Notes: a model not told the origin generated them from the letters alone. Positions 24,866-25,292 are shown, numbered from the stretch's first letter. The stretch is 42,748 bases of DNA from a virus (IMGVR_UViG_2695420651_000024); one strand, 5' to 3'. Numbers and translations are program-made.

Positions 24866-24948
24866 TACGGGGTGTTGTTGAAAGGCGGGCCCTGCGTATA
24901 CGCCCGTAGGATTGGGTTATGAGCCGTCCTTCGGTGGGCCCTGAATAC

Positions 24949-24971
24949 AAAAAAAGTTCGCCATAGCGAAC
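24949..24971 (-). terminator. Rho-independent terminator in the late leader (tR'-like)
   Basis: Minus strand GTTCGC-TATG-GCGAAC followed by TTTTTTT, about 85 nt upstream of the holin start. Confidence 0.55.
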
Positions 24972-25292
24972 CTTGTTAAATTTGTTAAAAAAGGAAGTTA
25001 TTTAACATAATGTACGTTATAGGAACCACACGATCCCCGCTCGCAATAGATTTGCGATGAAAGGCCTATTTAATCAACTTAAGTGGTCCAGAATGACGAA
25101 ATTCGAGTGAATAAAAGGTGCATAAAAAAGGGCAAAAACTGCATAGCGTTTTTTCGCAGCGAAAGCCCTGTTTTATTAACTTTTCCCCAGAATGGGGCAA
25201 TAAAAAAGGCCCCCTTGCGGAAGCCTCTTCGTGATGAACTGTTTTCAACAGATATCAGGCTAATCGGCTTTTTGGAATTCCACAACTATTTT
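24972..25292 (-). promoter_or_regulatory. Late regulatory region (expected late promoter and Q-utilisation site); exact elements not resolved
   Basis: About 320-nt noncoding gap between the Q-proximal genes and the lysis cassette with several hairpins; no convincing -35/-10 pair could be pinned down. Confidence 0.3.

What the first reader, a model, noticed from the sequence alone, without database searches (positions are those of the whole stretch)
24866..25292. Late leader with a strong terminator: likely late promoter, Q-utilisation site and tR' producing a short late RNA
A roughly 430-nt noncoding interval separates the Q-proximal genes from the holin. It contains a clean minus-strand terminator (GTTCGC-TATG-GCGAAC plus T7 at 24949..24971) and several further hairpins, the expected layout for Q-dependent antitermination. 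I could not pin down the promoter hexamers, so the start site and the Q-binding site remain open.
Basis: partly seen in the sequence, partly recalled or inferred. Interest (0 to 1): 0.35.

Follow-up and report, generated by a model that had tools for sequence, protein, structure and literature searches.

The report
Xer recombination site in phage leader
The gap between the phage's late-gene regulator Q and its lysis genes does contain real transcription terminators, but most of it is a plasmid-style XerC/XerD recombination site (a dif-like core plus accessory DNA) that recurs in over a hundred enterobacterial tailed-phage and prophage sequences, which is unexpected for phages that carry their own integrase.

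Summary
Window 24866-25292 is noncoding, and the minus-strand terminator GTTCGC-TATG-GCGAAC+T7 sits exactly at 24971-24949. Its stem is kept by compensatory changes in relatives. A second, stronger terminator (t1, 25230-25202) lies upstream.

No sigma-70-like sense promoter lies inside the interval. The best candidate straddles the Q stop codon (25692-25665), outside it.

The conserved bulk (about 25190-25000) is a psi/cer-type Xer site:
- The 28-bp core is GGTTCCTATAA-CGTACA-TTATGTTAAAT (25027-25000). Its XerD arm is identical to E. coli dif.
- About 165-190 bp of conserved accessory-like DNA lies on the XerC side, laid out as in pSC101 psi.
- The element occurs in more than 120 viral contigs, in three gene contexts, next to unrelated regulators. 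It shows no conserved RNA fold.
- The XerD arm is invariant and the central region varies.
- The dif-hunting IS ISKpn21 sits exactly 5 bp from the XerC arm in four loci.

The prophage has its own integrase and is not integrated at dif. Most likely this is a host-Xer multimer-resolution site, insulated by two terminators and read through by Q-modified polymerase. Function is inferred. I found no earlier report of such a site in tailed phages.

The parts
25665..25692 (-). It straddles the Q stop codon (25668-25666). Candidate only.
   Evidence: Best sense-strand PWM hit between Q and the holin (score 8.0 in the window, 9.4 in L001). The hexamers are kept in L001 and L015 while the spacer diverges. 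The score alone is not significant: 121 sites in the window reach 8 or more.
25202..25230 (-). Intrinsic terminator t1: 12-bp stem (AAGAGGCUUCC / GGGGGCCUUUU), GCAA loop, T6 run. It lies directly upstream of the Xer accessory region.
   Evidence: dG -17.1 kcal/mol, z -2.7. A GC hairpin plus T run occupies this position in all type-A relatives, with different stem sequences.
25028..25190 (-). Accessory-sequence-like region on the XerC side of the core. It includes ACAGGGCTTTCG (25171-25160, at -144) and 11-bp-phased direct repeats: CGCTATGCA (25148-25140), TTTTATGCAC (25127-25118) and TTTTATTCA (25116-25108), centred near -89.
   Evidence: Conserved across contexts A, B and C. The positions match pSC101 psi (ArcA-like box -96, ATAGCGCTTTCAG -142) and plasmid sites L129 and L131. 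No conserved RNA fold.
25000..25027 (-). 28-bp Xer core site: XerC arm GGTTCCTATAA (25027-25017), central region CGTACA (25016-25011), XerD arm TTATGTTAAAT (25010-25000).
   Evidence: The only match in the window, with 0 mismatches. The XerD arm is identical to E. coli dif GGTGCGCATAA-TGTATA-TTATGTTAAAT (PMC2731167). It is exact in 98 of 103 independently anchored elements. The element profile hits psi at E = 1.5e-9. ISKpn21 sits 5 bp from the XerC arm in four relatives.
24982..25011 (+). Antisense sigma-70-like promoter TTGTTA-18-CATAAT. Its -10 is formed by the XerD arm and the central region. It points back into the accessory region, and may be analogous to Pcer of ColE1 cer.
   Evidence: The only promoter-like site found in 24400-26500. 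PWM score 9.0, kept in all type A and C elements but not in type B. Pcer lies within cer and is repressed by proximity to XerCD (PMC4393325). No transcript evidence.
24981..24999 (-). Conserved right flank of the element (..CC TTTTTTAACAAAT). Homology between type A and type C phages ends just after it.
   Evidence: Alignment of 27 representatives. A CGTTTTT motif also follows the XerD arm in plasmid sites L129 and L131.
24949..24974 (-).
   Evidence: dG -10.4, z -3.9. Compensatory and wobble changes keep the stem in L016, L031 and L063.
24887..24941 (-). Structured leader between t2 and the holin: outer stem GGGCCC/GGGCCC, inner stems, and an invariant loop CGGCTCATAACCCAA that resembles a tRNA-Met anticodon arm. 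Function unknown.
   Evidence: dG -25 kcal/mol (z only -1.7). Three pairs with compensatory changes across four sequences, which represent two lineages. No tRNA or Rfam match.
24847..24865 (-). Ribosome-binding region and dual start (ATG..ATGAAAATG) of the lambda-family holin S (24506-24847/24865).
   Evidence: PF05106 at 1e-27 and phrog_126. Relatives annotate the MKM start.

Best explanation
The interval is a composite late-operon leader whose core is a plasmid-type (psi-like) XerC/XerD site-specific recombination site.

Reading along the minus strand, the parts are:
1. Terminator t1.
2. About 165-190 bp of accessory DNA.
3. A 28-bp dif-like core (XerC arm, 6-bp central region, XerD arm).
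4. Terminator t2.
5. A short structured leader and the holin start.

Proposed mechanism, inferred from what is established for psi and cer. When two copies lie in direct repeat on one supercoiled molecule, such as a dimer of the circular replicating phage genome, PepA and a second accessory protein bound near -89 interwrap the accessory regions. That second protein would bind 11-bp-phased direct repeats, as ArcA does at psi. XerC and then XerD exchange strands across CGTACA and return monomers. The site needs no phage-encoded recombinase.

Late transcription most likely starts at or near the end of the Q gene, not inside the interval. It must pass t1, the Xer site and t2, which only Q-modified polymerase should do. 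The site would then be transcriptionally quiet early and in lysogens, and transcribed late.

Shown here: the sequence identity of the core, its conservation pattern, its psi-like layout, its homology to plasmid sites, its targeting by a dif-hunting IS, and the two terminators.

Inferred: actual XerCD activity, the identity of the accessory proteins, the biological role, and the transcription start.
For: Core:
- GGTTCCTATAA-CGTACA-TTATGTTAAAT at 25027-25000 is the only such site in the window.
- Its XerD arm is identical to E. coli dif (PMC2731167).

Unbiased census:
- Among 103 unique elements found through an unrelated upstream motif, 98 have the exact XerD arm at the expected distance.
- Four of the other five are interrupted by an IS.

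Conservation pattern:
- 34 distinct cores show an invariant XerD arm, a variable central region and a conserved inner TAA in the XerC arm.
- These match the published rules for Xer sites (PMC11724359).

Homology to plasmid sites:
- The element profile hits the experimentally defined psi site of pSC101 at E = 1.5e-9.
- It hits resolution-type sites next to repA, parA and toxin-antitoxin genes on two plasmids at about 1e-14.

Layout (distances from the XerC arm):
- Phage: direct repeats at -98/-100 and ACAGGGCTTTCG at -144.
- psi: -96 and -142. Plasmid L129: -96 and -145.
- Second ('b') copies carry TGTTA-N6-TGTTG at -99.
- Type B elements are shorter by exactly 10 bp, one helical turn.

ISKpn21:
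- It is an IS1202-family 'dif site hunter' that inserts 5 bp from the XerC arm, makes a 5-bp duplication and has TGT..ACA ends (PMC10132070).
- It sits exactly so in L130, L019, L097 and L043, with two different duplications.

Other points:
- No conserved RNA structure on either strand, which points to a DNA-level function.
- The element is independent of the neighbouring regulator and is always on the late-gene strand.
- In phages with two copies, the central regions differ in all 21 cases.
- Terminators.
Against: - No experiment shows XerC/XerD binding or recombination at this site.
- The window's XerC arm differs from dif at 3 of 11 positions.
- The direct repeats in the window's accessory region (TTTTATGCAC / TTTTATTCA) are not a consensus ArcA or ArgR box.
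- Homology to psi is significant only for the core plus about 25 bp.
- These phages are integrated prophages with their own tyrosine integrase. All 148 E. coli copies are chromosomal, so the need for multimer resolution is not obvious. A headful-type packaging phage should want concatemers late in infection.
- The late promoter is not located. In some relatives (L002) the Xer element fills the whole gap between the terminator after Q and the next gene. A promoter embedded in the element therefore cannot be excluded.
Confidence: 0.7

Rival explanations
1. The interval is a lambda-type late regulatory cassette, with pR', the Q-binding and pause elements, and tR' (the 24971-24949 terminator) all inside 24866-25292. 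It would make a short constitutive RNA that Q extends.
For: It lies between a PF06530 Q gene and the lysis genes. It has two real terminators. In relatives such as L002 there is no other space for a promoter between the terminator after Q and the first late gene. Some relatives have a promoter-like pair across the core (TTGGCT-18-TATGTT at 8.9; TTGATG-17-TATGTT at 10.0).
Against: No sense-strand sigma-70-like site lies inside the interval in the window (best 5.5). The conserved sequence is shared with phages that have unrelated regulators. In type B phages it lies 5-6 kb from Q, between terS and terL, and a second copy lies inside the head-gene block. A Q-binding element should co-vary with the Q subtype, and this element does not. 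The -10-like hexamers in the core are intrinsic to any dif sequence.
Confidence: 0.15
2. The dif-like site is a relic, for example from a plasmid or phage-plasmid ancestor or from a past recombination event. It has no present function in these phages and persists only as a homologous 'linker' at module boundaries.
For: The prophages have their own integrase and are chromosomal. Only one plasmid record carries the phage-type accessory region. Mosaic breakpoints between type A and type C phages fall about 25 bp beyond the XerD arm, not in the central region. That fits homologous recombination rather than Xer-mediated exchange.
Against: The XerD arm is invariant in 98 of 98 intact elements, although the flanks and central regions diverge (34 core variants). 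The spacing of accessory motifs is preserved, including a clean 10-bp deletion. Central regions are non-identical in all 21 two-copy phages. All of these indicate purifying selection on a working site.
Confidence: 0.15
3. The conserved element encodes a structured RNA. This could be a small RNA or cis-acting leader on the late strand (6S-like or put-like), or an Rcd-like RNA from the antisense promoter TTGTTA-18-CATAAT.
For: The single-sequence fold of 25190-24940 has z = -3.0. The antisense promoter-like site scores 9.0 and is kept in types A and C. ColE1 cer does encode Rcd from a promoter inside the site (PMC4393325). A bidirectional terminator-like palindrome (AAAACAGGGC...GCCC TTTT) lies at the far end.
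Against: RNAalifold on 21 diverse elements gives essentially no consensus structure or covariation on either strand (-0.9 and -7.3 kcal/mol). No Rfam family matches. The antisense -35 is lost in type B and in second copies, and the -10 is simply part of the dif consensus.
Confidence: 0.1
4. The element is the phage packaging site (cos or pac), or it is the attachment site for Xer-mediated integration at the host dif, as in filamentous IMEX phages.
For: It is linked to a terS/TerL family in several contexts. IMEX elements carry dif-like sites.
Against: Type B genomes carry two copies, and YP3 three. In the window the element lies 1.5 kb and three genes upstream of terS. The prophage contains the site intact in its middle. 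It sits between yfhL and yfhH next to its own tyrosine integrase, not at dif. Accessory-sequence sites favour intramolecular resolution (PMC11724359; bioRxiv 10.64898/2026.02.23.706985).
Confidence: 0.03

Closest known systems
psi, the multimer resolution site of plasmid pSC101 (XerCD + PepA + ArcA)
   Same: A 28-bp core with a 6-bp central region. The XerD arm differs from psi's by only its last base (TTATGTTAAAT versus TTATGTTAAAC). Some relatives have psi's exact XerC arm, GGTGCGCGCAA. The CGAGTG motif lies just upstream of the XerC arm. An 11-bp-phased direct repeat is centred near -89, and an A(T/C)AG(C/G)GCTTTC motif lies near -143. The accessory region is on the XerC side.
   Different: It lies in the late-operon leader of integrating tailed phages, not on a small plasmid. 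The middle of the accessory region is not alignable with psi. The window's repeats (TTTTATGCAC / TTTTATTCA; TGCATAAA on the other strand) are not a consensus ArcA box. The site is flanked by intrinsic terminators.
cer of ColE1 (XerCD + PepA + ArgR; internal promoter Pcer makes Rcd RNA)
   Same: A dif-like core with about 200 bp of accessory DNA, and a promoter-like site overlapping the core that points into the accessory region.
   Different: cer has an 8-bp central region and an ARG box at -114. The phage profile does not hit cer. No Rcd-like conserved RNA fold is seen.
Chromosomal dif of E. coli (FtsK-dependent)
   Same: Identical XerD arm, 8 of 11 positions in the XerC arm, and a 6-bp central region.
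   Different: dif has no accessory sequences and acts at the replication terminus. The central region differs (CGTACA versus TGTATA). The phage site lies inside prophages at yfhL/yfhH and other loci.
Lambda late regulatory cassette (Q, pR', qut, 6S RNA, tR')
   Same: A Q-family gene upstream and intrinsic terminators before the lysis genes. A promoter-like pair lies right at the end of Q.
   Different: There are two terminators, with a roughly 200-bp recombination site between them. No promoter lies in the interval. Q belongs to PF06530 (Q21/Q933W family according to bioRxiv 10.1101/651190), whose binding element is not known for this subtype.
Xer-exploiting mobile elements (CTXphi and other IMEX) and Acinetobacter pdif modules
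   Same: Mobile elements that carry dif-like sites used by host XerCD. IS1202-family elements insert 5 bp from the XerC arm (PMC10132070).
   Different: IMEX elements lack an integrase and integrate at dif, whereas this phage has an integrase and sits elsewhere. pdif modules are bounded by inverted sites without long accessory regions. The two sites in type B phages are direct repeats with different central regions.

Membership tests
Xer core recombination site (dif/cer/psi type) | 11-bp XerD-binding arm matching TTATGTTAAAT | tested here: met
   25010-25000 matches 11 of 11 positions of E. coli dif. The arm is exact in 98 of 103 elements anchored on an independent motif.
Xer core recombination site (dif/cer/psi type) | 11-bp XerC arm, less conserved, with its inner bases forming a palindrome with the XerD arm | tested here: met
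   GGTTCCTATAA matches GGTGCGCATAA at 8 of 11 positions. The inner TATAA / TTATG pairing is kept. Relatives have GGTGCGGGTAA, GGTGCCGATAA and GGTGCGCGCAA (the psi arm). The rules are those of PMC11724359.
Xer core recombination site (dif/cer/psi type) | 6-8 bp central region whose sequence is not conserved | tested here: met
   It is 6 bp (CGTACA). More than 15 different central regions occur among 34 core variants.
Xer core recombination site (dif/cer/psi type) | Binding and strand exchange by XerC and XerD | not testable with these tools
   Indirect support only: ISKpn21, which targets dif-like sites, is inserted 5 bp from the XerC arm with a 5-bp duplication in L130, L019, L097 and L043.
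Accessory-sequence-dependent plasmid resolution site (psi/cer class) | About 200 bp of accessory DNA adjacent to the XerC arm | tested here: met
   About 165-190 bp is conserved upstream of the XerC arm in all contexts. Its ends align with plasmid sites L129 and L131 and with psi.
Accessory-sequence-dependent plasmid resolution site (psi/cer class) | An ArcA or ArgR site at a defined distance from the core | tested here: inconclusive
   11-bp-phased direct repeats lie at -98/-100, where psi has its ArcA-like box (-96). Second copies carry TGTTA-N6-TGTTG at -99. The window's own repeats are not a consensus ArcA or ARG box, so the identity of the protein is open.
Accessory-sequence-dependent plasmid resolution site (psi/cer class) | PepA-dependent, resolution-selective recombination between direct repeats | not testable with these tools
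   Needs an in vivo two-site assay in pepA, arcA, argR, xerC and xerD backgrounds.
Lambda-type Q-dependent late cassette | Q gene immediately upstream | tested here: met
   PF06530 at 5e-42 and phrog_79. Similarity to Q21 structures is weak (E = 0.13).
Lambda-type Q-dependent late cassette | Constitutive sigma-70 promoter (pR') inside the claimed interval | tested here: not met
   No sense-strand site inside the interval (best 5.5). The best candidate is outside it, at 25692-25665.
Lambda-type Q-dependent late cassette | Q-binding element and sigma-dependent pause element next to the promoter | tested here: inconclusive
   By eye I found no hexamer with A at position 2 and T at position 6 in the first roughly 25 nt after the candidate promoter (sequence shown). 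The binding element of this Q subtype is unknown.
Lambda-type Q-dependent late cassette | Intrinsic terminator between the promoter and the late genes | tested here: met
   t1 at 25230-25202 and t2 at 24974-24949.
IMEX (integrative element exploiting Xer) | No integrase of its own; prophage integrated at dif and flanked by dif-like halves | tested here: not met
   The prophage in NZ_AP022003 lies between yfhL and yfhH next to a tyrosine integrase. The Xer site is intact in its middle.

The most novel reading that the evidence does not exclude
Temperate tailed phages of Enterobacterales have recruited plasmid-type Xer sites as a regulated DNA-topology switch and as module boundaries. Placed between two terminators in the Q-controlled late leader, the site would let host XerCD/PepA keep replicating phage circles monomeric early in infection, or in a plasmid-like carrier state. 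Q-driven transcription through it would switch resolution off when concatemers are needed for headful packaging. The same sites, at the early/late junction, between terS and terL, and after the portal and head-morphogenesis genes, would mark the points where whole gene modules are exchanged between unrelated phages. That would be a tailed-phage counterpart of Acinetobacter dif modules.
Probability: 0.2. Interest if true: 0.85.

Novelty: new variant of a known kind. Interest (0 to 1): 0.62.

Why it matters
Xer sites with accessory sequences are textbook features of small plasmids. Xer use by viruses is known for filamentous phages and, more recently, double-jelly-roll phages that lack an integrase.

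A conserved psi-type site inside the late operon of integrase-bearing tailed phages would be new in several ways. The site occurs in about 2.7% of complete E. coli genomes and in Citrobacter, Enterobacter, Pantoea, Rahnella, Trabulsiella and Hafnia phages.
- It would add a host-recombinase dependency to tailed-phage biology.
- It gives a testable link between late transcription and genome multimer state.
- It offers a candidate mechanism or landmark for phage mosaicism.
- It explains why dif-hunting insertion sequences land in prophages.

It also warns annotators that 'late leader' intergenic regions downstream of Q can hold DNA-level elements rather than promoter and qut sites.

Tried and rejected
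1. Rfam at gathering and permissive thresholds, and ARAGORN: nothing relevant.
2. Structured-RNA hypothesis. The hairpins I thought co-varied in the accessory region did not hold up in RNAalifold on 21 diverse sequences, on either strand.
3. cos/pac hypothesis, raised because the element sits between terS and terL in some phages. I dropped it after finding two or three copies per genome and the identity to dif.
4. Alternative sigma factors. Sigma-54, sigma-E and sigma-28 motifs (GCCGATAA occurs in some XerC arms) were compared by eye with the sequences. None is conserved across elements.
5. IHF, CRP and DnaA-box readings of the repeats: partial matches only, not pursued.
6. ARG-box reading of TGCAC-N5-ATTCA: the half-sites are out of register by 1 bp (one search gives the cer box position).
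7. The idea that the XerC arm doubles as a replication iteron. GTGGTTCC occurs six times in the ori-like region and once across the XerC arm. Across relatives, iteron type and XerC arm are only loosely associated: 10 loci have both, and 7 and 9 have one without the other. I treat it as probably coincidental.
8. Locating pR' by comparison with other Q subtypes. Conservation at the Q 3' ends is confounded by the coding sequence.
9. Literature searches for Xer, dif-like or cer-like sites in tailed or temperate phages found none. The library is incomplete, so absence is not proof.
10. Q21 promoter sequences could not be read because they appear only in figures.

Full report
**What is at the coordinates**

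All genes in this part of the window run on the minus strand. In order they are:
- a VapE-type primase (26377-28563);
- a Q antiterminator of Pfam family PF06530 (25666-26088);
- a 113-aa ORF of unknown function (25293-25634);
- the interval in question;
- a lambda-family holin (start at 24847, MKM dual start);
- endolysin, Rz, terS and terL.

The interval has no credible gene. RefSeq annotates none under it in any of the 40 E. coli genomes listed, out of 146 that carry it.

The reported terminator is exact: GTTCGC 24971-24966, TATG, GCGAAC 24961-24956, T7 24955-24949. The scan tool extends the stem to 9 bp. It folds at -10.4 kcal/mol with z = -3.9. Diverged relatives keep the stem through compensatory and wobble changes.

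A second, stronger terminator, t1, lies at 25230-25202 (-17.1 kcal/mol). Between t2 and the holin lies a roughly 55-nt structured leader with three compensatory pairs.

**Following the conserved sequence away from Q**

BLAST showed the interval is 100% identical in four induced E. coli prophages. It is present in 146 of 5426 complete E. coli genomes, always on the chromosome. The close relatives lack the 113-aa ORF through an in-frame deletion.

Weak hits led to the same roughly 200-bp module in quite different places. A pattern from its upstream part, ACGCTATGCA-N12-TTTTATGCAC, hit more than 120 IMG/VR contigs and 11 enterobacterial genomes. A twelfth genome hit, in a Chitinophagaceae MAG, was a chance match.

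Flanking-gene analysis gives three contexts:
- **Type A:** after one of three divergent Q subtypes and a terminator, before the lysis genes. The window belongs here.
- **Type B:** between terS and terL of lambdoid phages, 5-6 kb downstream of their Q.
- **Type C:** after a near-identical primase and an unrelated 91-aa HTH gene, before podovirus-like structural genes.

A profile search also found second, partial copies about 3.9 kb downstream in type B phages, on the same strand. An element shared by phages with different regulators, and repeated inside the late operon, cannot be the Q-specific promoter or qut site.

**Identification as a Xer site**

The most invariant block is ..GGTGCGGGTAA-CGTACA-TTATGTTAAAT. 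A full-text search for TTATGTTAAAT returned mainly papers on dif/Xer recombination.

E. coli dif is GGTGCGCATAA-TGTATA-TTATGTTAAAT (PMC2731167). The window has GGTTCCTATAA-CGTACA-TTATGTTAAAT at 25027-25000, its only such site.

In an unbiased set anchored on the upstream motif, 98 of 103 unique elements have the exact XerD arm at the expected distance. Of the other five, three are split by ISKpn21, one by another IS, and one is a chance match.

Across 34 core variants the XerD arm is invariant, the 6-bp central region varies freely, and the XerC arm keeps its inner TAA. These are the published criteria for Xer sites (PMC11724359).

**Plasmid-type architecture**

Plasmid Xer sites need about 200 bp of accessory sequence next to the XerC arm. 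It is bound by PepA plus ArgR (cer) or ArcA (psi) at a defined position (PMC11724359; bioRxiv 10.64898/2026.02.23.706985).

The phage element has about 165-190 conserved bp on that side. Its profile hits the psi site of pSC101 (E = 1.5e-9), including the CGAGTG motif upstream of the XerC arm. It hits sites next to repA, parA and toxin-antitoxin genes on two E. coli plasmids at about 1e-14. For one of these plasmids the far end of the accessory region also matches. ColE1 cer is not hit.

The layout is the same in all of them:

| Site | Direct repeat or regulator box (from XerC arm) | A(T/C)AG(C/G)GCTTTC motif |
|---|---|---|
| Phage element, types A and C | -98/-100 | -144 |
| pSC101 psi | -96 | -142 |
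| Plasmid L129 | -96 | -145 |
| Second ('b') phage copies | -99 (TGTTA-N6-TGTTG, ArcA-box-like) | -146 in one of two representatives checked |
| ColE1 cer ARG box | -114 | not compared |

Type B elements are exactly 10 bp shorter, which preserves helical phase. RNAalifold finds no conserved RNA structure on either strand, as expected for a protein-binding DNA element.

**Independent biological evidence**

ISKpn21 belongs to the IS1202 family of 'dif site hunters'. These insert 5 bp from the XerC arm of dif-like sites, make a 5-bp duplication, and have TGT..ACA ends (PMC10132070).

In L130, an Enterobacter 'plasmid' that is this kind of phage, and in L019, L097 and L043, ISKpn21 sits exactly 5 bp from the XerC arm. 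The duplications are CGCGT or TCGCT, which means at least two independent events.

**What the site is not**

- **Not attP or an IMEX site.** In NZ_AP022003 the prophage lies between yfhL and yfhH beside its own tyrosine integrase, and the Xer site is intact 17 kb inside it.
- **Not cos or pac.** Some genomes have two or three copies, and the position relative to terS varies.
- **Not a known RNA family**.

**Where the late promoter may be**

Two scans find no sense-strand sigma-70-like site inside 24866-25292 (best 5.5).

The best candidate between Q and the holin is TTGCGT-16-CATAAT at 25692-25665, overlapping the Q stop codon. Both hexamers are kept in L001 and in L015 (Q about 91% identical in protein), while the spacer diverges. 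The score is not significant on its own, and the region is coding. This is a lead, not a finding.

If it is pR', then t1 is the first terminator. The RNA would be about 170 nt in relatives and about 455 nt in the window, where the 113-aa ORF sits in this leader. t2 would then be a second barrier.

In L002-type relatives the Xer element fills the whole gap between the terminator after Q and the next gene. A promoter embedded in the element cannot be excluded there.

The only strong promoter-like site in the interval is antisense: TTGTTA-18-CATAAT at 24982-25011. Its -10 is built from the XerD arm. This recalls Pcer of ColE1 cer (PMC4393325), but there is no sign of a conserved RNA.

**Most likely mechanism**

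Shown here:
- a dif-like core with psi-like accessory DNA;
- conservation under selection;
- two flanking terminators;
- a Q gene upstream.

Inferred:
- Host XerCD, with PepA and a response-regulator-type partner, resolves dimers of the circular replicating genome at this site.
- The terminators keep it free of transcription until Q-modified polymerase reads through.
- In all 21 phages with two copies, the central regions differ. This would prevent deletion of the terL-portal segment and suggests the sites are active.

Why an integrating, probably headful-packaging phage needs this is the main open question. The alternative that the site is a functionless relic gets about 15%.

**Novelty**

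Searches of the paper library found Xer use by filamentous and double-jelly-roll phages, by plasmids and by Acinetobacter dif modules. They found nothing on accessory-sequence Xer sites in tailed phages.

Among cultured phages the element occurs in Hafnia phage yong1, Yersinia phage YP3 and the vB_EcoM induced prophages, unannotated in all of them.

I rate it a new variant of a known kind. The site type is known. Its host (integrase-bearing Caudoviricetes), its position in the Q-controlled late leader or at module boundaries, and its distinct accessory repeats are new.

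Noticed in passing
window 26150-26400 (minus strand): An origin-like region between the primase and Q. It has six copies of the 8-mer GTGGTTCC/GGAACCAC in both orientations around an AT-rich run (ATATATATATATA), plus a perfect DnaA box TTATCCACA at 26161-26153. Relatives with roughly 90% identical primases carry quite different repeated 8-mers here (GGTAACAC, CTGTACCA, AGACAACC, GTCCCAAC, CTGACACC and others), which suggests fast-changing initiator specificity.
   Followed up: partly
window 25022-25029: The only GTGGTTCC outside the origin-like region overlaps the XerC arm of the dif-like core (7 copies in the window against 1.2 expected). 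Across relatives the link between iteron type and XerC arm is loose (10 with both, 7 and 9 with one only). It is probably coincidence, but this is not excluded as real.
   Followed up: partly
window 25293-25634 (minus strand): The 113-aa ORF between Q and the Xer element has no Pfam match and only PHROG hits of unknown function. In the closest relatives (ON470579 and others) an in-frame deletion reduces it to about 19 codons (57 nt in L001). If the promoter at the Q stop codon is real, this ORF sits between pR' and the first terminator and would be expressed without Q, like a moron.
   Followed up: partly
window 24887-24941 (minus strand): The structured leader after terminator t2 has an invariant loop CGGCTCATAACCCAA, which resembles the anticodon arm of tRNA-Met (CUCAUAA). 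It is closed by GGGCCC/GGGCCC, which co-varies to GGCTC/GAGCC in relatives. ARAGORN and Rfam find nothing. It could be a tRNA remnant or a small cis-regulatory RNA upstream of the holin.
   Followed up: partly
L021 2275-2512 and 6255-6390; likewise 21 of 24 type B loci: Lambdoid phages of type B carry two Xer sites in direct orientation, 3.85-4.2 kb apart. They bracket terL, the portal gene and the head-morphogenesis gene, and their central regions always differ (for example CGACCA versus GAACCC). The second copies are followed by a strong terminator just before the next head gene.
   Followed up: partly
L130 (CP042502.1, Enterobacter sp. E76 pE76_003), L019, L097, L043: ISKpn21 is inserted exactly 5 bp upstream of the XerC arm, with 5-bp duplications CGCGT or TCGCT. 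pE76_003 is a 76.9-kb circular 'plasmid' that carries the primase-Q-Xer-lysis region of this phage type, so it may be a phage maintained as a plasmid.
   Followed up: partly
L006 (Yersinia phage YP3, PV092592.1) 34525-34255, 17968-17817, 15567-15432: YP3 has three copies of the element. The first is a hybrid of an 'a'-type accessory region and a 'b'-type core. In the deposited record its terS-like gene is separated from terL. This may reflect rearrangement at the repeats or misassembly across them.
   Followed up: no
L127 (ON470579.1) 1-2254: The deposited 'complete phage genome', which is nearly the same length as the window, begins with host genes (tadA, pgpC, yfhH). The record is therefore an excised prophage region with host flanks, and its ends are not virion ends.
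   Followed up: no
window 24857-24872 (plus strand): A terminator-like hairpin on the opposite strand (CTCCGCCATTACGGGG plus a T-rich tail) overlaps the holin ribosome-binding region. On the sense strand the same palindrome could occlude the upstream holin start, as the sdi structure does in lambda S.
   Followed up: no
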